Shown here piece after piece: positions 586 through 32,848 of a stretch of DNA of 34,216 nt. A model generated the notes under the pieces. It was not told the DNA's origin. It worked only from the letters and a program-made list of their open reading frames with translations, and searched no databases. Position 1 is the stretch's first letter; every line of letters starts with the position of its first letter. The translations under genes were made by a program, and so were the position numbers. The stretch lies in IMG/VR virus record IMGVR_UViG_3300029181_000137; one strand, given 5' to 3'. The stretch comes from a virus. Lineage: Duplodnaviria > Heunggongvirae > Uroviricota > Caudoviricetes.

Positions 586-1634
586 GAAATCGTCCCCAGA
601 ACCGCCAGTTCATTTTTTGCAATGGAGATATTGTCCGCCGGGGCAAGCAACTGATGGCTGTATTCCCCGTTCGCACCGGAAATCGCCTCACTGATACGCG
701 ATACCTTCAGTTCTCCCTGAGGATAACCATCACGCAGCAGGAACGAACGCAACTCTGCGGTGATGGCAGCCCGTATTTCCGGTGTGTCCGGCGTCACGCG
801 GATATGAAAATCCACTTTATGCGCCACCGGCCTGAATACATACAAATCAGAGCCTGCCACCGGGGCCAGTGGCTCAATGTGTTGTCTTGCCGCCGTTTCC
901 GTTGATTCTTCCGGAATGGGATTAATCAGGTCACTGCTGGCAATCATCACACCGACAGTTCCCGTTCCCATCCAGTGACGGTATGTCCATGCGCGGGTAA
1001 TGCCGGGCACTTCTTTAGCCCAGACGACATAGTCCACGTCAGCCCCGCCCTGCGGCGTCCAGTAATACCGCTCAATGATGCGGGCGCGCCACGTTTCCAG
1101 CTCTTCAGTATCAAATCCGCCTGTCAGGGTGTCAGCCACACCGGAAGACGGCAGACCATTCACCGGCGTGACCAGGATTAATGCCGTACCGTCGTCAGCG
1201 TTACCGACCGCACCTGCACTTGAGCAGGCGATCGGCACGCGCAGGACACCACCGGAGCTGGTTGCATCGTCAGTTGTCGTGTACTGCACCAGGTCATCGC
1301 GCTGAATAACACTCCCGGCGGTCACCTTCAGGCCATCGCTGACACCTTCCCAGCGCATATACCCACTGGCAGCCGTGGCTCCCTTGCGCGGACACCGTTT
1401 CATCGCAGCATGTCGCGCCAGCCAGGACTCATCGCACAGGTCAGGCAGCATGTTCATTGCCAGATAATCGATGTAACCGTAAACCGTATGCAGCGCCGCC
1501 GCATACACCTTTGCCCGCACGTCTTCATCCATGCGCCGGAGCGTGTCGCTGACGTCCAGCCTGGCGAATAAATCGTTACGGAGCATACTGATATTTTCTG
1601 CCAGCGTCGGGCGCTGAAATTCACTGTCCGCCAT
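576..1634 (-). CDS. Baseplate J-like protein (Mu gp47-like)
   Basis: 352-aa ORF, size and position typical of baseplate J family, overlapping its neighbours as in an operon. Confidence 0.75.
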
Positions 1635-2594: not shown

Positions 2595-3673
2595 CAGAAC
2601 GGGTCCTCCTGTACTCTGGCTTTTTTCTTTTTCCGCGCGCCGGGGGCTTCGGGTTCAGGCAGATAAGCATCAGGTGGGCCGACACGGATTTCCGTCAGGG
2701 TGCCATTCTGGTCCTGAGTAAACGTGACTTCCGAGACAAGCAGTTCGGTATTGTCGAAACCACAGACCGGATCGAAGACAATCACCCGCTGGTTGGGCTG
2801 CCACAGCGTACCGTTACCCTGTCGCCAGCCCTGCACCACATAGGTGGTTTCATCCGTCCGCGCCGCCCGTTGTCGGGCTTCAAAGTCAGCACGCGCAATA
2901 CAGCCTGCCCCCGTAGCCTGCCCTGTCTGCCTGATATACATCGGACGGTAACGGGCAATAAATGCATCCTCTGTGCGGGCCCGCAGCGCGGTGGTGGTGG
3001 CCTCACCGAAATCATCGTCGTTTCCGGCACGCTGCCCCGCCACCTGGTAAACTGAAAACCGCTCCCGGATACTCTTCTCCGTATCACAGGAAAGGATGTT
3101 TTCCCCGAGTACCAACGCGGTATGTGCCCGCGTTGAGCCAATACCGCCAATCACCAGCCTGCCGTGCGGGTCGTCATAAGCCAGCGCCTGCTGCTGACCG
3201 AGTATTTTGTTGATCACCTCAATCACCGTTTCACCGTGATCAGGCTGGACATCAGGAATAACACCCGACGGCGCACCGCTGTTCACCACCTCAATGCCGA
3301 AAGGCGCAGCAAGCGCCTGCGCAATCTGTACCAGCGATCGTCCGTTAAACTGTGTCGGTTCGGCTGCACAGTCAATCAGGTCAGCGGTCAGACTACGTCC
3401 GGCAATACCGGTGCTGACCGAACGAGCATCGTAACGAACGGGCGTCGCCTCCACCCAGCCGGTGATCACCAGCTCATCACCAATCAGCACTTCCACTTTT
3501 GAACCGTTTTTAATGCGCGGCTGAAGCGTGGTAATACCCTCATCTCCCGGCCACTGGCGGGTGATCTCCACACTGAAATCCCGCGCCAATCGTTCAACAC
3601 CGGCACCGATGCGCACCGATGTCCAGCCATTCCACTCCCGGCCATTTACCCGTAGCGTGACGTTATCGTTCAT
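2594..3673 (-). CDS. Baseplate hub, late control D family (Mu gp44/P-like)
   Basis: 359-aa ORF downstream of the DNA circulation N-like gene; size and synteny of gpD/Mu P family. Confidence 0.7.
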   Translation of the reverse strand: MNDNVTLRVNGREWNGWTSVRIGAGVERLARDFSVEITRQWPGDEGITTLQPRIKNGSKVEVLIGDELVITGWVEATPVRYDARSVSTGIAGRSLTADLIDCAAEPTQFNGRSLVQIAQALAAPFGIEVVNSGAPSGVIPDVQPDHGETVIEVINKILGQQQALAYDDPHGRLVIGGIGSTRAHTALVLGENILSCDTEKSIRERFSVYQVAGQRAGNDDDFGEATTTALRARTEDAFIARYRPMYIRQTGQATGAGCIARADFEARQRAARTDETTYVVQGWRQGNGTLWQPNQRVIVFDPVCGFDNTELLVSEVTFTQDQNGTLTEIRVGPPDAYLPEPEAPGARKKKKARVQEDPF

Positions 3674-4998
3674 TGCACTGGCACCTTCAGAGGGATCACC
3701 GGCACAAAGCCGGGATGCGTAATGGCATTACGCCGGATAATGTCCGCGTCACGCGCCGCGTTATCAAACCAGGTCGCCGCCAGCACCAGCGCGGGTAAAA
3801 CCTCATCCGGCGTGCGCTGAATGATCCGTGCAGACTGTTTAAGGCGCGTGTTGATATCCGCATTCAGATCTGCTTTCACCCGGCGCAGCGCCAGAAACAG
3901 CGCATCACTGGTTGTACGGGACAACTCCTTATCAATTGCCGTATTCAGTGTGTAGCGAATGTCAGTCAGTTCTTCCCACGTCGGCAGGTCAACCGTGCTT
4001 TTCACCGCCGGTGCATTGTTCAGTGCCGGATGCGTGACGGAAGGCCAGCCAGTGCTCTGCGCGGGTGTTGTTGCCTGCCCCACTGCGGCATTCTGCATCA
4101 CCGCGGAAGTTGTTGGCGCAGGTAATCGGGTGACGGCATACGCCGCTTCGCTGATTGCGGTCGTACGAAGGATGCTGGCAACCACGTTACGCTGCTGCGT
4201 CGCCGTGGCGGTGGTTTTACTGTCCGTTTTCCAGACGCCGCGCGGTTGCAGATCACTGCCGAGGCTGACACCGGAAAGCGTTTTGATCATGGTGACCAGG
4301 TCGCTGGCGTTACCATAAAGGCGTTTCCCGGTACGCCACATTTTCTGCACCTGCTCAACGAAATTTTTGCCTGACGATGGCGGCGGCAGAAGTACCGAGA
4401 TATCCCCCTGCAACAGCCTGGCGGCATCCGATACGGCAGAATCCACCACTTTCATCGCATCAGAAACATACCCAAGCATTGTGCTGGCATTACCGACGAC
4501 ATCGTTCTGCACAAAATCTGCCACGCCATCGATACTGAAACTACTGAAACTGTCACTGATGCAGTCATCCAGTGCAGAACAGGATGACATCAGCGTCTGC
4601 GCCGTCGCCGCACCTGATGTGGGGTAAGAGAGTTCTCCCGCTTCGACAAACTTCAGGTCAAAGCGGACAATACGCCCTTCACTCTTCGATGTGCTGACCC
4701 GAACTTCTCCGTCAACACAGACTTTCAGTTCACCGTAAGTCGGATGGACAAGCGTGCCGGGACCGGGTTTATTCAGCGCGTCAATCAGGCGATCGCGCTG
4801 GTCAAAGCAATCATCTCCCACCACATAAGCCGTGATGGACGGGCGGAAAGTGATTTTCCCCAGGTCTTCGGTATAGGGTTTGTCGCGGTTCGGGTATTCG
4901 TGCGTTTCCACACGACGTCCAGTTCCCGCACTTTCTTCTTCAACCTTAAACGGCACACCTCGAAATGACGCATCCTGAAGCCTGTCTTTCCACGTCAT
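3670..4998 (-). CDS. DNA circulation protein N-like (Mu gp43)
   Basis: 442-aa ORF; N-terminus (WKDRLQDASFRGVPF...HEYPNRDKPYTEDLGK) matches the remembered DNA_circ_N signature; SD GGAG upstream. Confidence 0.75.
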   Translation of the reverse strand: MTWKDRLQDASFRGVPFKVEEESAGTGRRVETHEYPNRDKPYTEDLGKITFRPSITAYVVGDDCFDQRDRLIDALNKPGPGTLVHPTYGELKVCVDGEVRVSTSKSEGRIVRFDLKFVEAGELSYPTSGAATAQTLMSSCSALDDCISDSFSSFSIDGVADFVQNDVVGNASTMLGYVSDAMKVVDSAVSDAARLLQGDISVLLPPPSSGKNFVEQVQKMWRTGKRLYGNASDLVTMIKTLSGVSLGSDLQPRGVWKTDSKTTATATQQRNVVASILRTTAISEAAYAVTRLPAPTTSAVMQNAAVGQATTPAQSTGWPSVTHPALNNAPAVKSTVDLPTWEELTDIRYTLNTAIDKELSRTTSDALFLALRRVKADLNADINTRLKQSARIIQRTPDEVLPALVLAATWFDNAARDADIIRRNAITHPGFVPVIPLKVPVQ

Positions 4999-5010
4999 AT
5001 ATACTCCGAA

Positions 5011-5040
5011 AATTAAAAAGCCACCTATTAGAAGGTGGCC
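5011..5040 (-). terminator. Intrinsic terminator downstream of the tail-module moron
   Basis: Minus-strand hairpin GCCACC-TTCTAAT-AGGTGGC followed by TTTTTAATTTT, 20 bp after the moron stop codon. Confidence 0.55.
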
Positions 5041-5059
5041 TTGTAATGAATTTTATTAA

Positions 5060-5590
5060 TTAGCGAGTCAGAAACAACGAATCTTTATACTTTTGCTGTT
5101 GTTCATTTAAATACTTAGCTGTTTCATCGCTGGCAAATGGAAATATTACCGTATTTTTAGGCATGGTAATTTCTTTTTTGTCCAGCGTCAGAGTAAACAT
5201 AGGAACATACTGAGCAGAGTAACGCACCGCAGAAACGAGCTCTAGTTTAGACTCTTCAACAACACTTAAATTATCCAGGCTAACTTTCTCTTCATCTTTT
5301 TTCTTTGACGCATTTAAAGTTTTTATTACTTTATTTAATTCCTCCTGAAAATCCTCCTTAAAGTTTTCAGGATTGCCGTCGACAACAAGAATCTGTTCAC
5401 CCTGATTATCTGGAAAAATAATCTTTGCACTTATCAATTTATTTTCTTTATAAACATCACCAAGTTTTATGGCTCCTCCAGATAACTGAATAATATGTTC
5501 ATCTTTAAAGGAGATGTTGCCAGAGATTATGAGAGATGAAAAAATAGCCGCTGCTCCAAGAATTACACTTGCTGTGATATAGCCTTTCAT
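5060..5590 (-). CDS. AT-rich moron: hypothetical secreted/membrane-anchored protein
   Basis: 176-aa ORF with hydrophobic N-terminus (MKGYITASVILGAAAIFSSLIISG) and Lys/Glu-rich body; about 25-30% GC by eye versus about 55% in flanking tail genes; own promoter-like and terminator elements. Confidence 0.7.
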   Translation of the reverse strand: MKGYITASVILGAAAIFSSLIISGNISFKDEHIIQLSGGAIKLGDVYKENKLISAKIIFPDNQGEQILVVDGNPENFKEDFQEELNKVIKTLNASKKKDEEKVSLDNLSVVEESKLELVSAVRYSAQYVPMFTLTLDKKEITMPKNTVIFPFASDETAKYLNEQQQKYKDSLFLTR

Positions 5591-5625
5591 TTTTCGCCTA
5601 TTAACATTTTTCTAAATGTGCATTA

Positions 5626-5653
5626 ATTCTATCACTCTATTTATGACTTACAA
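5626..5653 (-). promoter_or_regulatory. Candidate sigma70 promoter of the tail-module moron
   Basis: Minus strand reads TTGTAA-16 nt-TAGAAT about 35 nt upstream of the moron ATG. Confidence 0.35.
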
Positions 5654-5681
5654 CCAGCAATACCTGTGAGGGGAATCCTAG

Positions 5682-7514
5682 CTACCAAAATCGGGTATAG
5701 CCAACATCGTGATTTATATCAATGCCACTGGAGCGTGTTTCCGTAACCCGCATACCTGGTGGCATATTTATAAATGATACCTTGATCTCACCATCAACTT
5801 TTGGCGCAGAAGCTTTGTTAATCATGAAGGGATTCGAGCCTGTGGCACCGGAGGCGTTGTTTGACTGAGCCAGATCCACCGCCGGATAAGGTGTGTATCC
5901 CCGCGCCGGTATTCCCGTCCCATAAGCATCATAAGCACCCGCGCCCCACTGCGCAGAGTTAATGGCATCGACCGTGTCACCAGAACTGTCGGTAAACCAC
6001 TCAATAATTGGCTTCAGCTTGTCCCACATATCCTGAAACCACTTAACAACCGGCCCCCAGTTATTGATCACCATCCCCAGCGGCGACCAGGCAAAAACTT
6101 TCTTAAGGAGTTCCCAGCCAGCCTCAAAATAAGGACCAATGGTTTCCCAGAGTTTCTTAAAATAAGGTCCGACAACATCCCAGTTAGTGATAATTAATCC
6201 CGCAGCCAGGGCTATCGCCGTCGCAATCATGCCAATCGGCGTCATCGACATGATCCTGCTGACAATGCTGATGGCACTGCCCACGCCCATCAATCCCAGT
6301 TTCAGAATCGCAAGACCGGCAGCAAGCCCGACGACGCCGCGAATAACCCGGGGATTTTCATCCGCAAACTTCGTGAATTTCTCCCCCAACTCCCCCAGCC
6401 ACTGCGTGATGTTCTTAGCGTCACCAGAAAATGCGCCGCCAATAGCCGCAAGGCCGTTGGTTGCGGTCCCCGTCATTGCCTCCCACAGGTTGGACAGCGT
6501 ACCAAGCTGTGCCTGAACACGTTTATTCAGGCTGGCCTGTTTATTCATCTTCTGCTGGATCTGATCGTAGCCATCCTTTCCTTTATCGATCAGCGCATTG
6601 ACCACCTGAAGGGTTTCGGCGTCATCACCAAATATTGCCTTAAGTACACCAGTTCGTTTAACGTCGGTCAGTTGTCGCAGCTTTGCCAGTTGCCTGAACA
6701 TGTTATCAAGACCGCCAAAACTCCCTTTGCCGTCAGTAAAATCGAGCTGTACCCCGAGTTTCTGGCGGGCCATGATTTTATTGACGTCCCTGATTTTCTT
6801 AACGCTTAATCCGGACTGGATAACTTTTCGCAGGGCGTTACCTGCCGACTCCCCGTTCATCCCCATCTGATCCATCATGACGCTGATGGGGGCAAGGCTC
6901 TGTGCAGCCTGAAGACCGTCCTTGTTCACCATCTTCAGAACAGAGCTGGTTTTAGTGAAGAAGGACAACATGTTGGTATCGTCAACGCCCAGATAAAACG
7001 CCTTCTGGATAGTGTCGAACAGCCCCATCATGTCTTCTGACGCCGTTCCGGTAGCATCCTGCATCTTTGCGGAAAACTCAGCAGCCGCTTCCGGTGTTTT
7101 TTTCAGTTGTACCGCAAGATAAGCTGTCGCTTTACCCACACCACCCAGAATGTTTTCTGCCGGGATCCCCTGACGCACCAGCATCTGCATCATGTTCTGG
7201 AAATCAGCCGTTGTACCGGGTAGCTGGTTACCCAGGCCAATAGCCAGTTTATTGATGTCCTGAAAGCTCTTTCCGACCTCGCCGTTCGCATCCATCATGG
7301 CGACTTTCAGCCCGGTGGCGGCGTTTTCCTGATCGGCATAAGATTTCAGGGAAAGCGTCAGACCCGCTGCCAGTCCGCCACCAAGCGCCAGCCCACCCTG
7401 TGACGCTTCTTCCGCCTGGCGTTTAAATCCCCGGATTTTCTTTTGCATTTTCGACAGCGCGGGAGAAAGCCTGTCGACACCGGTGATCAACGCCTTAAGC
7501 TCAAATTCAGCCAT
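5682..7514 (-). CDS. Tail tape measure protein
   Basis: 610-aa ORF, Ala/Gly/Leu-rich with hydrophobic C-terminal stretch, immediately downstream of the chaperone frameshift pair. Confidence 0.85.
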   Translation of the reverse strand: MAEFELKALITGVDRLSPALSKMQKKIRGFKRQAEEASQGGLALGGGLAAGLTLSLKSYADQENAATGLKVAMMDANGEVGKSFQDINKLAIGLGNQLPGTTADFQNMMQMLVRQGIPAENILGGVGKATAYLAVQLKKTPEAAAEFSAKMQDATGTASEDMMGLFDTIQKAFYLGVDDTNMLSFFTKTSSVLKMVNKDGLQAAQSLAPISVMMDQMGMNGESAGNALRKVIQSGLSVKKIRDVNKIMARQKLGVQLDFTDGKGSFGGLDNMFRQLAKLRQLTDVKRTGVLKAIFGDDAETLQVVNALIDKGKDGYDQIQQKMNKQASLNKRVQAQLGTLSNLWEAMTGTATNGLAAIGGAFSGDAKNITQWLGELGEKFTKFADENPRVIRGVVGLAAGLAILKLGLMGVGSAISIVSRIMSMTPIGMIATAIALAAGLIITNWDVVGPYFKKLWETIGPYFEAGWELLKKVFAWSPLGMVINNWGPVVKWFQDMWDKLKPIIEWFTDSSGDTVDAINSAQWGAGAYDAYGTGIPARGYTPYPAVDLAQSNNASGATGSNPFMINKASAPKVDGEIKVSFINMPPGMRVTETRSSGIDINHDVGYTRFW

Positions 7515-13180: not shown

Positions 13181-13867
13181 TTAGAAGTTCAGATTTTTCA
13201 GTGCATTCAGTGCAGAGCCCACATCCTCAGCGTCGCGCAGGGACAGTGCGCCATAGCCCCCGGCCATGAATGCTTTGGCCTGGGTACGGGAGAGTCCGAC
13301 ATCACGCAGGACTCTTTCGATTTTTTTCTGTTCGGGGATTTCCCCGCGGGCCAGCGCGTTCTTGACGTCGCTGATCCGCGCCTCGTCGTTAGACGGAAAC
13401 GTCACCAGACTGACTTCCCAGAGGTCGATTTCTTTCAGCAGAAAGGCTTCTTTGCTCCGGTCGTATTCCCAGTCTTTCAGGACGTACCCAATAGAAAGGC
13501 CGGTTAACGAACCGGCCTTCATGTGTGCATGTGCGCGTTTTGCGAGGGGATCATCATCAATAAGCAACCGCCCCCTGACGTAAAGCCCGACATCGTCTTC
13601 CTTCATTTCGGTGTAAACACCGATGGGTTCATCCATGCGGTGCTGCCAGAGCAGCGCAGGTAACGCTTTTCTGTCACTCCACGCCCGCAGGGAAGCAGCA
13701 AATGCCCCGGACATCACCACATCATCGTGGCTGTCCTTTACACCAAAGACGGAGCCATACCCTTCAAACTCACCGGAGTCACTGACAGATTTCAGACTCA
13801 GCGGTACATCAAGACGTTGTTTCGTCTGCATTGGCGTTATCCTTCTGCTTACCGGCTTTACTGCCAT
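13181..13867 (-). CDS. Prohead protease, HK97 family
   Basis: 228-aa ORF between portal and capsid genes; size and sequence character of the prohead protease family. Confidence 0.85.
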   Translation of the reverse strand: MAVKPVSRRITPMQTKQRLDVPLSLKSVSDSGEFEGYGSVFGVKDSHDDVVMSGAFAASLRAWSDRKALPALLWQHRMDEPIGVYTEMKEDDVGLYVRGRLLIDDDPLAKRAHAHMKAGSLTGLSIGYVLKDWEYDRSKEAFLLKEIDLWEVSLVTFPSNDEARISDVKNALARGEIPEQKKIERVLRDVGLSRTQAKAFMAGGYGALSLRDAEDVGSALNALKNLNF

Positions 13868-14771
13868 CGGAGGGTTTCGTGGTCATGTTCATCGGTGTGA
13901 GATAGACATCCCCACCGGGACGCGGATTCATATCTTCCAGGTCGCGGCAGTCATTGGGAGAGTAAATTCCCCAGTTAATCCCGGTGGCGTAGGCTTCAAA
14001 ACGGGACTTCATATCCCCGCGCAGTAACGCCCCGGCGTTAAATTTGGCGTAATAAACGCCCTGCTTACTTTTTCGTACCAGTCCGGTGTTGATCCGCTGC
14101 TCAATGCGGGTCAGATACGGCACCAGTGAATAGTTGATAAATCCGAGCCCCAGCTCTTCGATATTGTTGAAGGTGGCGCGATCGGTGTTCTGCACCATGT
14201 GCAATGGCACACGGAACAGACGACAAATTTCTTCAAGCTGAAACTTGCGGGTTTCCAGGAACTGGCTGTCCTCTGCGTTCAACGCCATCGACTTCCAGTC
14301 CAGCCCCATCTCAAGGATCATCGGGCGGTGAGCATTGCCAAGCCCGGTGTGACGCTCCTCAAAATCTTTCTTCAGGCGCTCATAAGCCTGATCCGACAGC
14401 GTCTGCTCTGTACGCAAAACACCCGACGTCACCGCGCCATTGCTGAACAGTCTGGCCCCGTGCTCTTCGGTCGCTGCCGCCAGCGATATTGCCTCGCGGG
14501 CATAGGCGATGGGATTCAGCCCCACCAGTCCGTCCAGCGTCAGCGTACGCACATGCCAGATATCCTCCTGGCTCAGTACATCCGTGGAGCCATCCGGGAA
14601 TGTGACCTGATAGACCGGTTCCCAGCTACTGTTAAGCTTCGGTACCACACAGCCGGGATCGACGGGCAGCAGTTCAGCCACTTCGCCAAATGCTTTCACT
14701 TTGTAGGCGTAAAAGTTTCCCCTCAGGCACAGACAGGTGACCACCAGCTCCCAGAACTCCTGCGGCGTCAT
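13809..14771 (-). CDS. Portal protein, HK97 family, N-terminally truncated
   Basis: 320-aa ORF (intact portals are about 400+ aa); begins at the conserved ...HPNGY-MTPQEFWELVV...LRGNFYAY... portal segment; the frame stays open upstream to 14945 without a start codon. Confidence 0.7.
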   Translation of the reverse strand: MTPQEFWELVVTCLCLRGNFYAYKVKAFGEVAELLPVDPGCVVPKLNSSWEPVYQVTFPDGSTDVLSQEDIWHVRTLTLDGLVGLNPIAYAREAISLAAATEEHGARLFSNGAVTSGVLRTEQTLSDQAYERLKKDFEERHTGLGNAHRPMILEMGLDWKSMALNAEDSQFLETRKFQLEEICRLFRVPLHMVQNTDRATFNNIEELGLGFINYSLVPYLTRIEQRINTGLVRKSKQGVYYAKFNAGALLRGDMKSRFEAYATGINWGIYSPNDCRDLEDMNPRPGGDVYLTPMNMTTKPSDGSKAGKQKDNANADETTS

Positions 14772-14842
14772 ATAGCCATTGGGATGCGTGGAGATCAGTT
14801 TATGCAGACGTTCGCCGGTGGCTCTCTGCTTCAGGCTGCCGT

Positions 14843-14923
14843 TCAGGTGATACAGATTCCGGCCAGCGCCTTGCGCGCCGTTGGCTTGGGGCGACGCCCG
14901 GAACGCCCCGCCGTTCCAGCCAT
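14843..14923 (-). pseudogene. Small terminase (P27-family-like) remnant, 26 codons
   Basis: Hand translation MAGTAGRSGRRPKPTARKALAGICIT*; the GR(R/P)PKPT..K.L.G start matches my memory of P27-family small terminase N-termini, then premature stop. Confidence 0.55.
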
Positions 14924-15048
14924 ATGCGGCACTCCTGGTTAAATTTCATTTTTCGCGGGTATAAAAAAACGATGGGGCGGGCAGTCCGGAAGACGTCAGG
15001 CCGCAGGGATTTGACCCGCCCCTCCCCTCAGGAAGTTGAGAATTATTA

Positions 15049-15399
15049 TCACTTCAACCGTTCACGGGCCGTCTTCGCCTTATGACATGGCCAGCACAGG
15101 CTCTGCAGATTACTGTCAGCGTCAGTGCCGCCATGCGCCTTAGGGATAATGTGGTCAACGGTTTTCGCCTCACGCACCACACCGGCACGCAGACATAACT
15201 GACACAGGCCTTTGTCACGCTTCAGCACACGTTCACGGATGGTATCCCACTTCGAACCGTAACCGCGCTGATGACGTGACAGGCCTGGTTTGTATTGCTT
15301 CCAGCCTTCGCTTTTGTGGCTTTCGCAATAGCCTGACGGGTCAGTAGTGGTATTGCGGCAACCGCGAACGCGGCAGGCTTTTGGTGTACGTGGTGGCAT
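15049..15399 (-). CDS. HNH endonuclease (terminase-associated type)
   Basis: Cys/His motifs CRVRGC...CESH...VDHIIPKAHGG...NLQSLCWPCH; start chosen at internal Met (MPPRTPKACRV) with AAGGAA SD; ORF track start is 15486. Confidence 0.8.
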   Translation of the reverse strand: MPPRTPKACRVRGCRNTTTDPSGYCESHKSEGWKQYKPGLSRHQRGYGSKWDTIRERVLKRDKGLCQLCLRAGVVREAKTVDHIIPKAHGGTDADSNLQSLCWPCHKAKTARERLK

Positions 15400-15472
15400 T
15401 AATTGTTTCCTTAAGCCATTACGATGCGTCTGAAAATGAGTTAATCTGAAAATTCCTTCACTATGCGAGAGC

Positions 15473-15778
15473 ATGACAATGGTCATAGGACAAGAAGATC
15501 AGAAATGCTGCCCGGCTTGCAATTCAGATGCGACCTGGCAGAACCGTGATACCGCTTGGTTAATTAGATGCCCGATGTGTGAAACATTTCTCATCAGGAA
15601 TTCCACCATTGAAATTTTGCGAAGTGACGTTGTGTATCGGACATTAGCTGGTGACCTTCTCAAACAAGAAGGTGGGTGTGACTACATGCTTACAAGAGGA
15701 AGGCTTGCGAACTTCGCGAAAACCCAGCTCCCAAAATCAAAGTTTCAGGAATACTTCCCTGGTGACAACTACGAATAA
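15473..15778 (+). CDS. Small zinc-ribbon protein, opposite-strand ORF inside the late region
   Basis: 101-aa ORF with CPAC-x17-CPMC spacing; antisense to late transcription; weak RBS, so uncertain. Confidence 0.4.
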   Translation: MTMVIGQEDQKCCPACNSDATWQNRDTAWLIRCPMCETFLIRNSTIEILRSDVVYRTLAGDLLKQEGGCDYMLTRGRLANFAKTQLPKSKFQEYFPGDNYE

Positions 15779-18443: not shown

Positions 18444-18649
18444 CGTCTGTAACAGCCGAACTGGTAATCTACCAGCCCCGCCATAACCAGCTGGGTCAGT
18501 ATTAACTGACAGCGTTCGCGTGAAAGGTATGTGTTTTGTGCAATCTCCCCGACTGTTGCCGGTTCGATGCTTAATTCATTAAAAACAACTTTTGCCGTTT
18601 CTGTCATATCTTGCTGTTTTAGCATGTCTTTTTCCCTTCTGGTTAACAT
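18431..18649 (-). CDS. Small hypothetical protein
   Basis: 72-aa ORF in late-operon orientation between the cargo cassette and the methyltransferase; no recognisable family. Confidence 0.45.
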   Translation of the reverse strand: MLTRREKDMLKQQDMTETAKVVFNELSIEPATVGEIAQNTYLSRERCQLILTQLVMAGLVDYQFGCYRRLQQ

Positions 18650-18747
18650 GACATACCAATAACTCTTGTCTAAAAAGCCAGCAAGATAAAAAGTCAGTAT
18701 TCACGACCACCAGCGTGTTTACCGTACTGCTCTTGGTTTACAGGTAC

Positions 18748-18768
18748 AAAAAAACCGCTCGACGGCGG
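18748..18768. terminator. Short GC hairpin flanked by A7/T7 runs
   Basis: AAAAAAA-CCGC-TCGACG-GCGG; reads as stem plus T7 on the minus strand; weak 4-bp stem. Confidence 0.3.
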
Positions 18769-18870
18769 GTTTAAGCTGTGTGGCGAAGTAACCACTCTTA
18801 ACAGATTATGATAGTTTTTGCGTACGCGTTAGTAATTTATTATGCTCTTTACAATTGTTAGCTTAACCGC

Positions 18871-20037
18871 ATGGAATTGACCAAAAAAATGAGCAAAGCA
18901 AGCATACGCCACGTAATCGTTCATGAGCTCTTAAAAGAATCTAATAAAGACTTCGATCACTCCAAACCATACAATCTTCGTGATACAGAACTAGATAAAA
19001 CAAATGATATAGTAAAAAAATTAGTAGACGGTGTTATTGATTTGTATGGTTCAAAAGGGAACTCAGCGCATTATGGTGTTTTTATTAAAAATAAAACAAA
19101 GCAAGGCCCTATACCAGAACTATTTCATAAATACTCTTTAGTTCAACAATCTGTTTCAAGTGATTTCATTGAATTATCGAAGGAAGTTATGAAACAAATG
19201 TATAAATCTGCTCAAGAGCAGATTTGGGCTTCTGGAGGATATGTTGTTTTTACTGATTATATTTTATCTGGTTTCCGTTATCTATTGGTTACAATGATCA
19301 AAAAAACTAATGGCGTAACTATTAGTGAAAATTTAGAGCCAGAGGAAATGATTCACTTAGAACTTGGTAATATTAACCAAGCAGCAAAAATAAATTTCAG
19401 ATATTATGAAGAATACCAAAAAGCAGATGACTTAAAAAAAACAGAGTTAAGTTATCTAAGCTTTATAAGCAAAACTACGGGACAGTCAGCGGCAGCATAT
19501 TTTATAGCAGCATTAGGATGTGACAAGGGGATTGCTTCAGCAGGTGCAACCCGTAAGTTACCAGATGAAATAAGGCGTTTCTTTAAGAAAGAACCTCTTT
19601 TAAAAAATCAAGCAGAGTCATTTAGAAATGATGTTATCAAATACTTAGAAAAGCAATTTGACAACGAGCACTCTGCAAGGCTTTCTGATATCGAATCGCT
19701 TGCTTCAGGCCATATGTCCTATTTAAAAGAGGAAGAAAAAACAGAACTTGTTGATAAATTAATGAAACACCTCAATAGTGAGGAAGTCAGAATCCCATCA
19801 GAGTTCGTAATCAATAAAAACTCCTTAGATAAAATCCGCAATGTGATATATAAAACTCCATCATTGAGCTTTCACTTCGACAAGGATTTACTCGGTGTCA
19901 CAACTGATGCTAAAATATATTATGATGACGAAAACCAAAGCCTAACATTTAATAATTTGCCTGTTGAAGCATTAACTAAGATAAGAAGAGCGTTGAAAGA
20001 AACTGATAACCCGAGTAACGAAGAAGATAAAGAATGA
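18871..20037 (+). CDS. NdpA/YejK-family (NA37) nucleoid-associated-like protein, cargo gene A
   Basis: 388-aa ORF; blocks alignable by eye to E. coli YejK (GGYVVFTDY..RYLLV...ISENLE; YLSFISKTTGQSAAAYFIAALG; FHFDKDLLG); about 30-35% GC by eye; opposite strand to phage genes. Confidence 0.8.
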   Translation: MELTKKMSKASIRHVIVHELLKESNKDFDHSKPYNLRDTELDKTNDIVKKLVDGVIDLYGSKGNSAHYGVFIKNKTKQGPIPELFHKYSLVQQSVSSDFIELSKEVMKQMYKSAQEQIWASGGYVVFTDYILSGFRYLLVTMIKKTNGVTISENLEPEEMIHLELGNINQAAKINFRYYEEYQKADDLKKTELSYLSFISKTTGQSAAAYFIAALGCDKGIASAGATRKLPDEIRRFFKKEPLLKNQAESFRNDVIKYLEKQFDNEHSARLSDIESLASGHMSYLKEEEKTELVDKLMKHLNSEEVRIPSEFVINKNSLDKIRNVIYKTPSLSFHFDKDLLGVTTDAKIYYDDENQSLTFNNLPVEALTKIRRALKETDNPSNEEDKE

Positions 20038-21260
20038 ATGATTTTAGTATAATAGTTAATCTGTATAGATTATCAAGCTATCCTCATTTTGACGGGGCTA
20101 AGTTTTCTGCGCGTATAGCTTATAATGCAGACGTAAAATCATTGTTCAAAAGAATTTTGAACCCTACTTTTCAAGCTGGTACAGCTGACGAAATAGAGGT
20201 GGATGGTCATTTAATTTATGATTATGAAGACTTTCCTGAAAAGGGAAATTTTCTTACATACTCGTTTAAAATTTCACAAGGAAGTGCGAATCGTTTTTAT
20301 AAAAATAAAAACGAGTTTGTAAAAATAAACACGCTCAAGAAAGGCATAATGCCAGAGTATTTCTATATTATAGAGGATGATTTCTATTCATTAGAAACAC
20401 CAAAACCTTCTTATATCCAAAAAATTGAGGACATTTGTGAGCTAATCAATGCTCTTTCCATGCTTGCTCATTTCCATGATATAAAAAAAGATAGCAAAGG
20501 TACATTTTATCGTTTAGTCTTTATTTTAAACTCAGAGTCTAAATCTTCTTCTGCTGTAATTGAAACAAATATTACAGAAGAAATTTTTAATGATAAAACA
20601 GTAAATACTCAGTTAGTTAAAACATTAGTAAGTAGTGAAGCTACTACTGATGCCCATCATATTGAAAAGATTAACACTTTCAGAAACACAGTTATTGAGT
20701 ATGTTAATAAAAATGGAAATTCCTTTGTCGAGTTAATTAACAAGTGGGATTTCATATGCGAACTTTATACGAACAACTTAGCTGCTTATATGTCGGCATT
20801 TTCTTTTCATAAAGCAAGGAAAGAAGTTGTTGATGCTGAACTCGATTACTCAGAAAAACTGTCAAAAATAATTTCAGAAATTTCTAACAAAGCTCTTGCC
20901 ATACCTATTTCACTAGCTGGTTCAATTGCTATTTTTAAATTAACAACAAAAGCTGATTGGATTATTGCTTTAATTGGATTGATTATCACAGCAATAATAA
21001 CATCTGCAATGATTGTGTCACAAAAAAAACAACTTGCTCGTATTTCACACTCTAAAGAAATACTTTTTGGACAATTAAGATATAGAATAAAGGATGACAC
21101 CAGCGATCTTAAAGAGAGCTTAGAAGAGGCTATTAAAAAATTAAATGACAATGAGGATTTTTGTCATAAGGTGCTTGACAGTTTATTATCACTAGCATGG
21201 ATGCCTACATTCATAGGCATCATCGGTATTTTATTTAAATTAATGCCAAATATTACTTGA
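20034..21260 (+). CDS. Membrane protein with three C-terminal TM helices, cargo gene B
   Basis: 408-aa ORF, ATGA start/stop overlap with gene A; hydrophobic segments LAIPISLAGSIAIFKL, WIIALIGLIITAIITSAMIVS, LLSLAWMPTFIGIIGILFKLM; AT-rich. Confidence 0.8.
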   Translation: MNDFSIIVNLYRLSSYPHFDGAKFSARIAYNADVKSLFKRILNPTFQAGTADEIEVDGHLIYDYEDFPEKGNFLTYSFKISQGSANRFYKNKNEFVKINTLKKGIMPEYFYIIEDDFYSLETPKPSYIQKIEDICELINALSMLAHFHDIKKDSKGTFYRLVFILNSESKSSSAVIETNITEEIFNDKTVNTQLVKTLVSSEATTDAHHIEKINTFRNTVIEYVNKNGNSFVELINKWDFICELYTNNLAAYMSAFSFHKARKEVVDAELDYSEKLSKIISEISNKALAIPISLAGSIAIFKLTTKADWIIALIGLIITAIITSAMIVSQKKQLARISHSKEILFGQLRYRIKDDTSDLKESLEEAIKKLNDNEDFCHKVLDSLLSLAWMPTFIGIIGILFKLMPNIT

Positions 21261-21612
21261 GCATGTACATAACCCCATTAATGAAACCTAACGCAGTCTG
21301 CAATTGCTTCCGGATTGTTCCATCTGAGCATCTGCGTCTCTTCGCAATAGAACGCAGTGAAATACCTATAACGAAGTGAGCAATGATCAGCTCATATTCG
21401 TCTGGTTTATACTTACACAGGCGGGCAACACAGCCGTCTATCATGATGCCTTCATCATCATCACACTGAAGGCGTATTTTTTTACCATGAGGTAAAAGCC
21501 CCTTAAAGCCTGCTGCTATCGGCTGCCAGTCCACACCACTGTTATCTGCTGCAGCCCACGCTCCCCAGCGGTCTAAAACTTCATACATATCACGCATCAA
21601 CTTTCTCCACAA
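21253..21612 (-). CDS. Q: Late antiterminator Q (QuuD / Phage_antitermQ type)
   Basis: 119 aa with LDRWGAWAA...IAAGFKGL...C..C...CSDG pattern matching my memory of DLP12 QuuD. Confidence 0.8.
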   Translation of the reverse strand: MWRKLMRDMYEVLDRWGAWAAADNSGVDWQPIAAGFKGLLPHGKKIRLQCDDDEGIMIDGCVARLCKYKPDEYELIIAHFVIGISLRSIAKRRRCSDGTIRKQLQTALGFINGVMYMLK

Positions 21613-26803: not shown

Positions 26804-27478
26804 ATGAAAACAATCCATGACATCCGGCGGTCTAACGCCAGAAAACTGAGAGATGGTGTTGGCGGGAATTCTTCCTTTGCCACTATGATTGATCGCGAGC
26901 CAACCCAGACCAGCAGGTTTATGGGAGATGGTGCTACTAAAAATATCGGTGACAGCATGGCACGACACATCGAAAAATGTTTCGACCTGCCTGTCGGATG
27001 GCTCGATCAAGAACACCAGACAACGAACATCACAAAAAAACCTGATGTTTCAATCACTAATAAACAAATCACATTAGTCCCTGTCATATCATGGGTACAG
27101 GCCGGAGCATGGAAAGAAGTTGGATATTCTGAGGTTGATTTGAGCACAGCAGAAACGTATCCCTGCCCTGTCCCCTGTGGGGAAATGACTTATATCTTGC
27201 GGGTGATAGGTGATTCAATGATTGATGAGTACCGCCCGGGAGACATGATTTTTGTCGATCCTGAAGTACCTGCCTGCCACGGTGACGACGTTATTGCATT
27301 GATGCACGATACAGGTGAAACCACCTTCAAAAGGTTGATAGAAGATGGGACACAGCGTTATCTCAAAGCGTTAAACCCAAACTGGCCTGAGCCTTACATT
27401 AAGATCAACGGTAATTGCTCTATAATTGGTACAGTGATTTTCTCAGGAAAACCAAGAAGATACAAAATCAAAGCCTAA
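26804..27478 (+). CDS. cI: CI-type repressor (HTH plus S24 LexA-like autopeptidase domain)
   Basis: 224 aa; C-terminal domain with GDSM motif (VIGDSMIDEYRPGDMIFVD) and downstream Lys (TFKRL); divergent from cro. Confidence 0.9.
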   Translation: MKTIHDIRRSNARKLRDGVGGNSSFATMIDREPTQTSRFMGDGATKNIGDSMARHIEKCFDLPVGWLDQEHQTTNITKKPDVSITNKQITLVPVISWVQAGAWKEVGYSEVDLSTAETYPCPVPCGEMTYILRVIGDSMIDEYRPGDMIFVDPEVPACHGDDVIALMHDTGETTFKRLIEDGTQRYLKALNPNWPEPYIKINGNCSIIGTVIFSGKPRRYKIKA

Positions 27479-27491
27479 TCAATGTTTATGA

Positions 27492-27513
27492 ACCTGCTTC
27501 GGCAGGTTTTTTT
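27492..27513 (+). terminator. Intrinsic terminator after cI
   Basis: ACCTGC-TTCG-GCAGGT followed by TTTTTTT, 14 nt after the cI stop. Confidence 0.65.
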
Positions 27514-27517
27514 ATAC

Positions 27518-27549
27518 TTGACAATGTACCTTTGAGATACATAATGTAC
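27518..27549 (+). promoter_or_regulatory. Candidate pL with OL-like operator half-sites
   Basis: TTGACA (27518..27523)-16 nt-CATAAT; two ATGTACC half-sites (27523..27529, 27543..27549) sharing the TGTACC motif of the OR palindromes. Confidence 0.5.
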
Positions 27550-27636
27550 CCAAGCGAAACAACAAACAGGCAGGTCGTCCACGAAGTAGCCGCCTGGGGC
27601 ATATGAAGTCCAGGATGATTCGTTAGCAACAAAAAA

Positions 27637-27667
27637 GCGCCCTACAGGACGCTTAGCTCTTTAACAA
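27637..27667 (+). promoter_or_regulatory. nut-like element: hairpin plus boxA-like GCTCTTTAACAA
   Basis: GCTCTTTAACAA at 27656..27667 matches the remembered boxA core of rrn operons; preceded by imperfect hairpin GCGCCC-TACA-GGACGC. Confidence 0.4.
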
Positions 27668-27712
27668 TCTGGTCCCCTTCAACAAGTAACTGATAACTTG
27701 AGGAGGTGTGAA

Positions 27713-27919
27713 ATGCACAAAACAGAACCCAAAATCGTCGCGCCTGGCTACACAGATGAGGAAATTTATGAGTGGATGACAAAGAAGCTGGCAGCTATAA
27801 ACCAGCTTCGTGAAGTGCTGTCTTATCGACAGGAAACAATAGACTCCTTAAAAAAACTGGATCAGGAAATCACGGTTTTATCACAGGATGTTACTTTAGA
27901 TATTGTGCAGACAAATTAG
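27713..27919 (+). CDS. First pL-operon ORF, small acidic hypothetical protein
   Basis: 68-aa product from MHKTEPK with strong SD GAGGAGGTG; no Arg-rich motif, so not a recognisable N. Confidence 0.5.
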   Translation: MHKTEPKIVAPGYTDEEIYEWMTKKLAAINQLREVLSYRQETIDSLKKLDQEITVLSQDVTLDIVQTN

Positions 27920-28325
27920 GATCCCATTCATTTTCGTCAAAATCATCAAAGTGATGAATTTGTGATCTCCAGTCTCGATAATCTAAAAATTTCTGGGCGG
28001 TTACGCTTATTTTATCAAGCGTGAGTTCATCCTGAATTGAAAGAAGAAGTTCATCAAATTTCATCTCATTAATCTGCTTTGGCATCCAGTGATGCTTCAT
28101 CAGAATAAGGTGAACCAGAGCCTTTTTCCCATTCAACTGATTATAGGGAGTGCCGAATTTCTTCCGGTGCTCATGTAAGACAAGGTCCAGAAGAGTAAGT
28201 AATGTTGCCCTTGATTCAACTTTACTTATTTCGACTGATGACACTACCCCACTGATTTCAATGCCCCGATACTTTCCAACATTTTCACAGTGGGATTTGT
28301 ACAACGTGTAGATATTACCGGACAT
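27891..28325 (-). CDS. AT-rich hypothetical protein in the immunity region
   Basis: 144-aa ORF, about 35% GC by eye, good SD (AAAGGAAAAG), convergent with and overlapping the 3' end of the pL-proximal ORF. Confidence 0.6.
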   Translation of the reverse strand: MSGNIYTLYKSHCENVGKYRGIEISGVVSSVEISKVESRATLLTLLDLVLHEHRKKFGTPYNQLNGKKALVHLILMKHHWMPKQINEMKFDELLLSIQDELTLDKISVTAQKFLDYRDWRSQIHHFDDFDENEWDPNLSAQYLK

Positions 28326-28340
28326 TTCTTTTCCTTTTGC

Positions 28341-28392
28341 GTTGTTGGGGATAACCAGATTAACCGAATCCTTGTTGTTGGGGAATAACCAG
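28341..28392. repeat. Two direct repeats upstream of the 144-aa gene
   Basis: GTTGTTGGGGATAACCAG (28341..28358) and GTTGTTGGGGAATAACCAG (28374..28392), 15-bp spacer. Confidence 0.5.
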
Positions 28393-28655
28393 GTCCACCT
28401 CGCCTGATGTGGCTAAAAGCAGGCACATAACAGCTAAGTATTTTCAACCAGAGAGAATTCTTAGCGTTGTGGTGAATGCGGCTCAGCGCACGCGGGTTAA
28501 GGTTGAGGCTGACAGTCGACCTTCTGTAGATACCCACCCGCCTGGTGTGCAACCTTCGCCAGGCACCGGGAGGCACCCGGCACCACAACTTTATGCTGTG
28601 TGTAGTCCTGGCGGTACCAGCTTGTACTCTTGCTTCCGGCTGGTACCGTCCTTTT

Positions 28656-31368: not shown

Positions 31369-31718
31369 TGGAGCCATACAGCCTCACACTCGATGAGGCC
31401 TGTCATTTTCTCAAGATATCCAGACCGACTGCCATTAACTGGATACGCACAGGGCGTCTTCAGGCAACACGCAAAGATCCCACTAAGAATAAATCTCCTT
31501 ACCTCACAACACGACAAGCCTGCATTGCGGCGCTTCAGTCTCCGCTGCATACTGTCCAGGTGAGCGCGGGTGATGGCATAACAGAGGAAAGAAAATGTCA
31601 CTCTTCCGCAGAGGTGAAATATGGTACGCCAGTTTCACATTGCCGAACGGTAAAAGATTTAAACAGTCTCTTGGAACAAAGGACAAAAGGCAGGCGACAG
31701 AACTCCATGACAAGCTAA
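31368..31718 (+). CDS. xis: Excisionase (HTH_17/Xis family)
   Basis: 116-aa product from [33 protein letters not shown] with TAATG coupling and AAGAGG SD; overlaps the int start by about 120 nt. Confidence 0.65.
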
Positions 31719-32758
31719 AGGCTGAAGCATGGCGGGTCAGCAAACTTGGTGAAATACCTGATATAACGTTCGAGGAAGCGTGTGTCAGGTGGCTTGAAGA
31801 GAAAGCACATAAAAAATCACTGGACGATGACAAAAGCCGGATCGGATTCTGGCTTCAACATTTCGCAGGAATGCAACTAAGAGACATTACTGAATCAAAA
31901 ATTTATTCAGCAATGCAGAAAATGACGAACCGGCGTCATGAGGAAAACTGGAAACTCAGGGCAGAAGCATGCAGAAAAAAAGGGAAACCTGTTCCAGAAT
32001 ACACGCCAAAACCAGCGTCCGTTGCAACGAAGGCTACGCATCTTTCATTTATAAAGGCCCTACTAAGAGCCGCAGAGCGTGAATGGAAAATGCTGGATAA
32101 GGCACCAATTATTAAAGTGCCTCAACCAAAGAATAAACGGATCCGCTGGCTGGAGCCCCATGAAGCACAAAGGCTGATTGATGAATGTCCGGAGCCATTA
32201 AAGTCTGTTGTTGAATTTGCACTGGCAACAGGCTTAAGACGCTCGAACATCATCAACCTTGAATGGCAACAAATAGATATGCAGCGCCGGGTGGCATGGA
32301 TAAACCCGGAAGAGAGTAAATCAAACCGCGCAATTGGCGTTGCGCTGAATGATACTGCATGTCGCGTATTGAAAAAACAAATCGGGAATCATCACCGTTG
32401 GGTATTTGTGTACAAGGAAAGCTGTACCAAACCAGACGGAACGAAAGCGCCAACAGTAAGGAAGATGCGGTATGACGCAAACACAGCCTGGAAAGCGGCG
32501 CTGAGACGGGCTGGTATTGATGATTTCAGATTTCACGACTTGAGACACACCTGGGCAAGTTGGCTGGTTCAAGCCGGAGTCCCGTTGTCAGTTTTACAGG
32601 AAATGGGAGGCTGGGAGTCTATCGAAATGGTTCGTCGATATGCTCACCTTGCACCTAATCACCTTACCGAACACGCACGGCAAATAGACTCGATCCTGAA
32701 CCCATCGGTCCCAAATTTGTCCCAGTCAAAAAATAAGGAAGGTACTAATGATGTGTAA
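31595..32758 (+). CDS. int: Tyrosine integrase, P22-type
   Basis: 387 aa; C-terminal catalytic region with HDLRHTWAS and RRYAHLA (catalytic Tyr); ends 15 bp from the tRNA-Thr 3' end. Confidence 0.95.
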
Positions 32759-32772
32759 CTTATTGATTTTAA

Positions 32773-32848
32773 TGGTGCCGATAATAGGAGTCGAACCTAC
32801 GACCTTCGCATTACGAATGCGCTGCTCTACCAACTGAGCTATATCGGC
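32773..32848 (-). tRNA. thrW: tRNA-Thr (anticodon CGT), integration target
   Basis: Minus strand reads GCCGATATAGCTCAGTTGGTAGAGCAGCGCATTCGTAATGCGAAGGTCGTAGGTTCGACTCCTATTATCGGCACCA; anticodon loop ATTCGTAAT; encoded CCA end. Confidence 0.9.

What the first reader, a model, noticed from the sequence alone, without database searches (positions are those of the whole stretch)
5011..5680. Self-contained AT-rich moron inside the tail operon, between tape measure and DNA-circulation genes
A 176-aa protein with an N-terminal signal or anchor sequence is flanked by a promoter-like TTGTAA-16-TAGAAT and a clean hairpin+T-run terminator, at much lower GC than the tail genes. This is the classic moron layout, implying expression in the lysogen. 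Exported morons in tail regions are often superinfection-exclusion or host-interaction factors.
Basis: partly seen in the sequence, partly recalled or inferred. Interest (0 to 1): 0.6.

Follow-up and report, generated by a model that had tools for sequence, protein, structure and literature searches.

The report
Exported cargo gene in phage tail operon
A small, AT-rich add-on gene for a membrane-anchored periplasmic protein of unknown function sits in a swappable slot between two tail genes of a defective E. coli prophage; the layout is a textbook phage "moron", but the protein family is uncharacterised and may block infection by other phages.

Summary
A 176-aa ORF (5060..5590, minus strand, GC 0.35 against 0.56 for the late operon) lies between the tape-measure and DNA-circularisation genes. 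A strong hairpin plus T-run follows it; a TTGTAA-16-TAGAAT site precedes it.

The moron reading is supported by comparison:
- Phages SfI, SfII, SfV and SfIV and most E. coli relatives have about 41 bp where this window has 662 bp.
- The same interval holds at least five unrelated AT-rich cassettes in other E. coli prophages. Two are antisense, and four encode exported or membrane proteins.
- In Lelliottia a 770-bp fragment carrying this gene survives alone in the chromosome, still intact.

The protein belongs to a small family absent from Pfam. It has one N-terminal membrane helix and a confidently modelled periplasmic domain with no convincing solved-structure match. Its one remote relative is a lipoprotein of virulent Pseudomonas phages.

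Weak points:
- The promoter match is no better than chance.
- Expression in lysogens is untested.
- Function is inferred only. An envelope-level block to superinfecting phages, as with HK97 gp15, is the best guess.

Verdict: a new member of a known kind, of moderate interest.

The parts
5026..5687 (-). The 662-bp cargo cassette: the interval that differs from related prophages. SfII has 41 bp here.
   Evidence: Against SfII, blastn homology ends at 5025 and resumes at 5688. Against L020 and L022 the boundaries are 5025 and 5682-5688. GC is 0.343. There are no flanking direct repeats.
5626..5653 (-). Sigma-70-like promoter candidate, TTGTAA-16-TAGAAT with a TG extension. The predicted transcription start is near 5619.
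   Evidence: Found but not above chance. A TTG and an ..AAT lie at aligned positions in 4 of 5 diverged upstream regions.
5060..5590 (-). ORF of 176 aa; a member of phrog_5485 (unknown function) and of a family of about 79 clusters that is absent from Pfam.
   Evidence: dN/dS is 0.078 between two homologues whose synonymous sites are not saturated.
5522..5587 (-). Codons for residues 2-23: the single N-terminal membrane helix (signal anchor or signal peptide).
   Evidence: AlphaFold helix 2-23. A hydrophobic 19-mer starts within the first 15 residues in 59 of 60 family members; the N-terminus is net positive and the stretch after the helix net negative.
5063..5521 (-). Codons for residues 24-176: the predicted periplasmic alpha/beta domain. 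The most conserved motif (G39, L43, G44, E49) lies just after the anchor.
   Evidence: Model with pLDDT 91.3 and pTM 0.76. Conservation. The remote homologue carries a lipobox instead of the helix.
5005..5042 (-). Intrinsic terminator: stem-loop 5042..5017 and T-run 5016..5005, 18 nt after the stop codon and ending just before the start of the DNA-circularisation gene.
   Evidence: -17 kcal/mol, z = -4.9. The position is conserved in homologous loci.
5682..7514 (-). Tail tape-measure gene, the upstream border of the slot.
   Evidence: PF10145 and phrog_28.
3670..4998 (-). DNA-circularisation / baseplate hub gene, the downstream border of the slot.
   Evidence: PF07157 and phrog_184.
21253..21612 (-). 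Q-like antiterminator gene. It explains how late transcription can pass the terminator inside the tail operon.
   Evidence: phrog_79, E = 9e-46. The role of Q in SfV-type phages is described in PMC3851460.

Best explanation
The interval 5026..5687 is a moron. It is an exchangeable cargo cassette in a polymorphic slot between the tape-measure and DNA-circularisation genes of a lambdoid-regulated, Mu-type-tailed (SfV-like) prophage integrated at thrW/proA.

It encodes a 176-aa protein with one N-terminal membrane helix (N-terminus inside) and a globular alpha/beta domain of about 150 residues facing the periplasm. The protein belongs to a small uncharacterised family that travels as cargo on different mobile elements.

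Inferred mechanism:
- In the lysogen the gene is transcribed from its own weak sigma-70 promoter.
- That transcript stops at the hairpin plus T-run, so the baseplate genes stay silent.
- During lytic growth, Q-modified RNA polymerase reads through the terminator.
- The protein is not part of the virion.
- Its most likely job is to act at the inner membrane or periplasm of the lysogen to stop superinfecting phages from delivering DNA, as HK97 gp15 does.

Status of each step:
- Shown: the cassette nature, the slot polymorphism, purifying selection, the anchor-plus-domain architecture, and its non-structural status.
- Inferred: periplasmic orientation (strong), promoter use in lysogens (moderate), and anti-phage exclusion (weak).
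For: Cassette and slot:
- SfII has 41 bp where the window has 662 bp, between flanks that are 95-96% identical.
- The flank-only query finds both flanks in 863 of 5426 complete E. coli genomes.
- Cassette counts in those 5426 genomes: this cassette 175; a 164-aa secreted protein 84; a membrane-anchored OB-fold PF12869 protein 58; a bPH_1 protein 24; a two-helix membrane protein 5.
- All cassettes have GC 0.31-0.41 against 0.50-0.54 in the flanks, and two are antisense to the operon.

Autonomy:
- In Lelliottia amnigena only 770 bp survive: 190 bp of the tape-measure gene's 3' end, the gene and its terminator. They lie downstream of the icd terminator, and the ORF is intact.
- Distant homologues (22-24% identity) sit in small integrase/resolvase islands of Pseudomonas-like bacteria, not in tail operons.

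Real gene:
- dN/dS is 0.078 at dS 1.07.
- 79 clusters of uniform 170-180 aa length.

Topology:
- AlphaFold gives helix 2-23 plus a domain, pLDDT 91.3.
- Family-wide charge bias fits an N-in orientation.
- The remote homologue in Pseudomonas phage ventosus replaces the helix with a lipobox (LLTGC) and keeps the motif that follows the anchor: Foldseek E = 1.6e-6, hhalign 82.8% probability, E = 9e-6.

Read-through: a Q-like antiterminator is present.

Analogy: HK97 gp15 is a tail-operon moron next to the tape-measure gene. It is an inner-membrane protein expressed from the prophage that blocks DNA entry (PMC3594210).

Retention: the cassette is intact in a prophage that has lost its terminase and the start of its portal gene.
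Against: - The promoter match is at chance level, and in Leclercia L002 no site reaches the scan threshold upstream of the gene.
- The gene has the same orientation as the operon, so late read-through alone could express it.
- AT-rich DNA in E. coli is commonly silenced by H-NS (general knowledge, not tested here).
- Homologues in virulent phages show that the family is not tied to lysogeny.
- The Lelliottia copy could be a recent remnant rather than a long-maintained gene.
Confidence: 0.5

Rival explanations
1. It is a lysogenic-conversion factor for host fitness rather than phage defence. The periplasmic or membrane protein would alter envelope properties (stress, serum or colonisation traits), as lambda Bor and Lom or the P2-like prophage gene neaT do.
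For: - The protein is exported or anchored.
- It is kept intact in a defective prophage and as a lone chromosomal remnant in Lelliottia, which fits a benefit to the host.
- It occurs in E. coli from humans, animals, soil and water.
- neaT shows that tail-operon morons can be virulence or fitness genes (PMC3573123).
Against: - Remote homologues occur in virulent Pseudomonas phages of about 95-100 kb, which gain nothing from long-term host fitness.
- There is no similarity to any known envelope virulence factor.
- Nothing here separates this rival decisively from the exclusion hypothesis.
Confidence: 0.25
2. It is a lytic-cycle accessory gene with no promoter of its own. It would be transcribed only with the late operon and act in the infected cell envelope, for example by masking receptors or entry factors so that progeny are not wasted on lysing cells, as the T5 lipoprotein Llp does.
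For: - The gene has the same strand as the tail operon, and Q-mediated read-through is available.
- The promoter match is at chance level.
- Homologues in virulent phages are lipoproteins.
Against: - The stand-alone Lelliottia copy lies behind the icd terminator with no late operon upstream, yet keeps an intact ORF.
- Homologues in Pseudomonas islands have no phage late operon.
- A TTG/..AAT pair lies at aligned positions in 4 of 5 diverged upstream regions, and three of them score in the top 3-6% of shuffles.
- The window's prophage can no longer package DNA, yet the gene is intact.
Confidence: 0.15
3. It is a tail structural or assembly component specific to this tail type, for example a membrane-associated partner of the tape-measure protein.
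For: - Its position is directly after the tape-measure gene.
- Homologues occupy the same position in prophages of four enterobacterial genera.
Against: - It is absent from the plaque-forming phages SfI, SfII, SfV and SfIV, whose flanking genes are 91-96% identical, and from most E. coli relatives.
- Unrelated genes, some antisense, replace it in other prophages.
- It is found outside any tail module.
- A membrane anchor is atypical for a virion protein assembled in the cytoplasm.
Confidence: 0.03
4. It is a membrane-acting abortive-infection effector that kills or arrests the cell on infection.
For: It is a small membrane-anchored protein in a prophage hotspot. Such hotspots often hold defence genes (PMC11364771).
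Against: - It has a single helix plus a well-folded soluble domain, not a pore-former architecture.
- There is no partner gene in the cassette.
- There is no PADLOC match.
Confidence: 0.05

Closest known systems
HK97 gp15 moron (Juhala et al. 2000; Cumby et al. 2012; summarised in PMC3594210)
   Same: - A single-gene, compositionally distinct insert inside the tail operon, directly beside the tape-measure gene, with its own transcription signals.
- The product is a small inner-membrane protein.
- For gp15, expression from the prophage and a block of DNA entry by superinfecting phages have been shown.
   Different: - gp15 lies upstream of the tape-measure gene in a siphovirus; this gene lies downstream of it in a myovirus tail module.
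- gp15 is a short YebO-like protein. This protein has 176 aa with a large periplasmic domain and gave no Pfam match.
- Expression and exclusion are unproven here.
Variable moron positions of P2-like prophages (Z/fun, neaT position between tail genes G and FI)
   Same: A fixed slot between tail genes that carries different, un-ameliorated, sometimes antisense cargo genes in different prophages (PMC3573123; bioRxiv 10.1101/2024.10.15.618418).
   Different: The phage lineage and the slot differ. Cargo here is dominated by small exported or membrane proteins. I found no description of the tape-measure/DNA-circularisation slot in the papers searched.
Phage-encoded envelope lipoproteins that exclude phages (T5 Llp, phi80/N15 Cor, TP-J34 Ltp) and single-anchor Sie proteins of lactococcal prophages (Sie2009)
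   Same: Small phage proteins tethered to the envelope with a domain outside the cytoplasm. The remote homologue in Pseudomonas phage ventosus is a lipoprotein. Cor and SieA are cited as exclusion proteins in PMC3594210.
   Different: No sequence or fold similarity to any of them was detected; the resemblance is architectural only. Llp, Ltp and Sie2009 are recalled from general knowledge and were not compared here.
phrog_5485
   Same: Full-length match, E = 3.4e-107, positions 1-176 of 176.
   Different: The PHROG carries no functional annotation, so membership says nothing about function.

Membership tests
Moron (as defined by Juhala/Hendrix; see PMC3594210) | Present in some genomes and absent from closely related ones at the same position | tested here: met
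   SfII has 41 bp against 662 bp here. 29 of 48 sampled two-flank E. coli junctions are empty.
Moron (as defined by Juhala/Hendrix; see PMC3594210) | Base composition differs from the surrounding genes | tested here: met
   GC 0.343 against 0.557 for the late operon.
Moron (as defined by Juhala/Hendrix; see PMC3594210) | Own terminator | tested here: met
   Hairpin plus T-run, -17 kcal/mol, z = -4.9. The empty site also has one.
Moron (as defined by Juhala/Hendrix; see PMC3594210) | Own promoter | tested here: inconclusive
   A 9/12 match with TG extension is present but at chance level. There is partial positional conservation. The stand-alone Lelliottia copy implies a promoter within about 370 nt upstream.
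Moron (as defined by Juhala/Hendrix; see PMC3594210) | Expressed from the repressed prophage | not testable with these tools
   Needs RNA or protein data from lysogens.
HK97 gp15 / YebO-like exclusion proteins | Sequence homology to gp15/YebO | tested here: not met
   No Pfam family at E <= 0.01 for this protein. No shared family above noise in 60 relatives.
HK97 gp15 / YebO-like exclusion proteins | Blocks DNA entry of superinfecting phages when expressed alone | not testable with these tools
   Requires plating, adsorption and DNA-entry assays.
Known anti-phage defence systems (PADLOC-DB v2) | Match to a defence-protein model | tested here: not met
   No match at E <= 1.
Tail structural or assembly genes of the SfV/Mu-type tail module | Conserved in all functional relatives of the module | tested here: not met
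   Absent from SfI, SfII, SfV and SfIV and from most E. coli prophages with the same flanks. Unrelated cassettes replace it.
phrog_5485 | Full-length profile match | tested here: met
   E = 3.4e-107, positions 1-176 of 176.
Bitopic (N-in, C-out) or secreted envelope protein | Single N-terminal hydrophobic helix, positive N-terminus, soluble domain outside the cytoplasm | tested here: met
   A lipobox-anchored remote homologue supports the outside location. Cleavage of the helix is undetermined.

The most novel reading that the evidence does not exclude
The family would be a previously unrecognised class of envelope-tethered phage-exclusion proteins. Its periplasmic domain would intercept the tail tip (tape-measure or hub proteins) of incoming contractile-tailed phages. 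Its anchor would be interchangeable: a membrane helix in temperate enterobacterial prophages and a lipid anchor in virulent Pseudomonas phages. The tape-measure/DNA-circularisation slot of SfV-like prophages would then be a dedicated hotspot for such envelope-level defences, with at least five further untested candidates.
Probability: 0.25. Interest if true: 0.6.

Novelty: new member of a known kind. Interest (0 to 1): 0.4.

Why it matters
Morons in tail operons are a classic and well-understood layout, so the architecture itself is not news. What the analysis adds:

- It defines a six-state cargo slot in a prophage lineage whose slot-flanking sequences are found in about a fifth of complete E. 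coli genomes (1094 of 5426).
- The cargo is mostly small exported or membrane proteins of unknown function.
- It provides a confident structural model for the commonest cargo protein.
- It links that protein remotely to lipoproteins of virulent phages.
- It supplies natural "empty" alleles that make clean knock-out designs trivial.

If the protein excludes phages at the envelope, it and its slot-mates would extend the short list of characterised injection-blocking proteins. That could matter for phage-therapy host range in E. coli.

Tried and rejected
Searches on the protein that found nothing useful:
- Pfam, NCBIfam and PADLOC scans gave nothing.
- Pfam on 60 family members gave only noise.
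- PDB sequence searches with the single protein and with the family profile gave nothing significant.

Structure:
- The afdb50 library was unavailable.

Searches of phage and genome collections:
- tblastn against isolated phage genomes gave no match with this protein or a distant relative.
With the close alignment it found only two species-representative loci.

Other checks:
- Insertion scars: no flanking direct or inverted repeats, so cassette exchange by homologous recombination in the flanks is more likely than site-specific insertion.
- Rfam: only a sub-threshold Phe_leader match caused by the terminator hairpin.
- I suspected the window's terminal gene was icd, to link it with the Lelliottia remnant. 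This was rejected: it is an aldehyde-dehydrogenase-family gene beside tRNA-Thr(CGT), that is proA/thrW.
- I tested whether the secreted 180-aa neighbour in the Pseudomonas islands is a paralogue. It is not.
- Literature searches found no paper on this slot or this protein.

Full report
**What is there.** The finding's interval holds one ORF, 5060..5590 on the minus strand, encoding 176 aa. Upstream on the same strand is the tape-measure gene (5682..7514, PF10145). Downstream is the DNA-circularisation / baseplate hub gene (3670..4998, PF07157). Both sit within a run of Mu-type sheath, tube, chaperone and baseplate genes. The cassette has GC 0.343, against 0.557 for the rest of the late operon.

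A 10-pair hairpin (5042..5017) with a T-run follows the stop codon. It folds at -17 kcal/mol, z = -4.9. TTGTAA-16-TAGAAT with a TG extension lies at 5653..5626. This motif is not above chance: the scan found 3 sites against 2.9 expected in shuffles, and 20% of shuffles of the upstream 100 nt score as well. No Rfam family and no repeat scars are present.

**Genomic setting.** The window is a lambdoid-regulated prophage with a Mu-type contractile tail, the SfV/SfI/SfII type.
- The integrase lies beside tRNA-Thr(CGT), with an aldehyde-dehydrogenase-family gene (proA) next to it.
- CI-like repressor, CII-like, O-like replication and RusA genes are present, as is a Q-like antiterminator at 21253..21612.
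- Holin, endolysin and spanin genes follow, then the head and tail genes.
- Comparison with a complete relative shows a 2,543-bp deletion at 14857/14858. It removes most of the small terminase gene, all of the large terminase gene and the portal start, so this prophage is defective.

**It is an exchangeable cassette.**
- Against phage SfII the flanks align at 95-96% identity up to 5025 and from 5688. SfII has 41 bp in between, including its own hairpin plus T-run, which its authors annotated as a terminator.
- SfI, SfV, SfIV and several coliphages likewise match only the flank.
- A query made of the two flanks alone finds both flanks in 863 of 5426 complete E. coli genomes.
- In an evenly spaced sample of 60 records, 48 had both flanks. 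Of these, 29 were empty, 10 carried this cassette, and the rest carried other inserts.

The other inserts occupy exactly the same interval. They are unrelated to one another, all low in GC (0.31-0.41), and each has its own terminator.

| Cargo | Strand relative to operon | Complete E. coli genomes |
|---|---|---|
| This 176-aa protein | same | 175 |
| 164-aa protein with a typical signal peptide | same | 84 |
| 148-aa OB-fold protein (PF12869) with an N-terminal helix | opposite | 58, plus partial copies |
| 125-aa bPH_1 protein | same | 24 |
| 145-aa protein with two membrane helices | opposite | 5 |

Four of these five other cargos are exported or membrane proteins, as is this one. None matches PADLOC.

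**It is old in this slot and can live alone.**
- Homologues at 52-58% identity lie between the tape-measure and DNA-circularisation genes of related prophages in Leclercia and in metagenomes.
- A 57% homologue follows the tape-measure gene in a Citrobacter freundii assembly, and a 40% homologue occupies the slot in Edwardsiella anguillarum.
- Every such copy measured is AT-rich: 0.35-0.36 in the Leclercia and metagenome loci and 0.352 in Edwardsiella, and the Leclercia and metagenome copies are each followed by a hairpin plus T-run. Low GC is therefore a persistent property here, not evidence of recent arrival.
- The protein has diverged more than its structural neighbours: 52-55% identity against mostly 63-88% for tube, sheath, DNA-circularisation and tape-measure proteins (one tape-measure comparison, with L002, is only 37%).
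- It is under strong purifying selection: dN/dS = 0.078 at dS 1.07.
- In Lelliottia amnigena only 770 bp remain: 190 bp of the tape-measure gene's 3' end, the gene and its terminator. They lie just downstream of icd and its terminator, and the ORF is intact.
- More distant relatives (22-24% identity) lie in small integrase/resolvase islands of Pseudomonas-like bacteria with no tail genes nearby.
- No isolated phage genome in the INPHARED collection encodes the family detectably by tblastn. A few circular records of about 35-38 kb filed as plasmids do.

**The protein.**
- An exhaustive profile search finds 79 clusters (at 50% identity), nearly all 170-180 aa. None of 60 aligned members matches Pfam.
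- The family shares an N-terminal hydrophobic 19-mer starting near residue 5 (59 of 60 members). The N-terminus is net positive and the stretch after the helix net negative.
- The most conserved motif comes directly after the helix. G44 and Y124 are invariant; G39, L43, E49, N93 and L134 are nearly so.
- With the 60-sequence alignment AlphaFold gives pLDDT 91.3 and pTM 0.76. The model has helix 2-23; strands 32-36, 39-44, 46-58 and 67-72; helix 74-93; strands 114-126 and 132-143; and helix 149-171.
- Foldseek against viral models gives one significant match (E = 1.6e-6, TM 0.56/0.66), labelled a lipoprotein of Pseudomonas phage ventosus.
- I located the only lipobox-bearing 144-aa ORF in that genome, CNR37_00111, and take it to be that entry. 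Its N-terminus is MKRLLFLGITALLLTGC. The motif after the anchor, DTIIHTRSAVVNVGEVTAEG, mirrors EHIIQLSGGAIKLGDVYKEN in this protein. hhalign against the family gives 82.8% probability and E = 9e-6 over 132 columns.
- Three more virulent Pseudomonas phages of about 95-100 kb carry relatives of it.
- A lipid anchor in place of the helix argues that the domain works outside the cytoplasm.

**How it most likely works.** The evidence fits the standard moron model (PMC3594210; PMC3851460). A short independent transcription unit is insulated from the baseplate genes by its terminator in the lysogen, and Q-modified polymerase reads through it during lytic growth. The product is an envelope-tethered periplasmic protein that is not needed for virion formation.

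For function I commit to superinfection exclusion at the DNA-entry step. The grounds are:
- the analogy with HK97 gp15, a tail-operon moron beside the tape-measure gene that encodes an inner-membrane protein blocking entry;
- the envelope bias of the slot's cargo;
- the presence of relatives in virulent phages, where an envelope protein is more easily explained by phage-phage competition than by host fitness.

I give about 0.9 to the cassette/moron status, 0.8 to periplasmic exposure, 0.6 to expression in lysogens and 0.35 to exclusion. The rivals are a host-fitness envelope factor, late-only expression, a structural role (contradicted) and an abortive-infection effector.

**Novelty.** The layout is already known as a kind. 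The specific slot, its six states and this protein family appear uncharacterised in the libraries and papers I could search. This is a new member of a known kind, of moderate interest.

Noticed in passing
window 14857/14858 (region 13809..15486): Relative to a complete relative (CP088862.1), 2,543 bp are missing. The deletion removes most of the small terminase gene, all of the large terminase gene and about 64 codons of the portal start. The portal ORF 13809..14771 matches its profile only from position 138. The prophage therefore looks packaging-defective.
   Followed up: yes
window 18871..21260 (+), low-GC block 18501..21600: A second moron-like insert lies between the Q antiterminator and the lysis genes, antisense to the late genes, with GC down to 0.29. 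It holds two genes: an NA37 (YejK-like) nucleoid-associated protein of 388 aa and a 408-aa protein of unknown function (phrog_5023). Neither matches PADLOC. The same pair is present in CP088862.1.
   Followed up: partly
window 27401..28400, ORF 27891..28325 (-): A third low-GC patch (0.39) lies next to the CI-like repressor gene and holds a 144-aa ORF of unknown function (phrog_5286). This is the position where lambdoid phages often carry exclusion genes.
   Followed up: no
L001 (phage SfII) 3109..3147; same position as window 5005..5042: Even the empty slot keeps a hairpin plus T-run between the tape-measure and DNA-circularisation genes (-18.7 kcal/mol, z = -3.3). An internal terminator in the tail operon therefore seems to be a conserved feature of this lineage, with or without cargo. 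The SfII record starts the DNA-circularisation gene 42 nt further upstream, inside this hairpin, which is probably a mis-called start.
   Followed up: partly
L008 (Lelliottia amnigena) 5810..6581: A lone 770-bp remnant (190 bp of the tape-measure gene's 3' end, the cargo gene and its terminator) lies between icd with its terminator and a GATase gene. No other phage DNA was detected in the roughly 1.3 kb compared with the prophage loci.
   Followed up: yes
L009 (E. coli DG342-2) 702..1088: A copy of the OB-fold cargo cassette has lost its 5' end, including the start codon and the membrane helix. Cargo in this slot also decays.
   Followed up: partly
L013 5401..5943 and L016 (Pseudomonas-like islands): In small integrase/resolvase islands the distant homologue is preceded by an unrelated 180-aa protein with a classical signal peptide. 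The pair may form a two-gene exported module.
   Followed up: partly
window 32773..32848 and 31595..32758: tRNA-Thr(CGT) lies directly beside the integrase, with a proA-like gene at 32963..34216. From general knowledge, thrW/proA is the attachment site used by the Shigella serotype-converting phages. No gtr or O-antigen modification genes were seen in the part of the window examined.
   Followed up: partly
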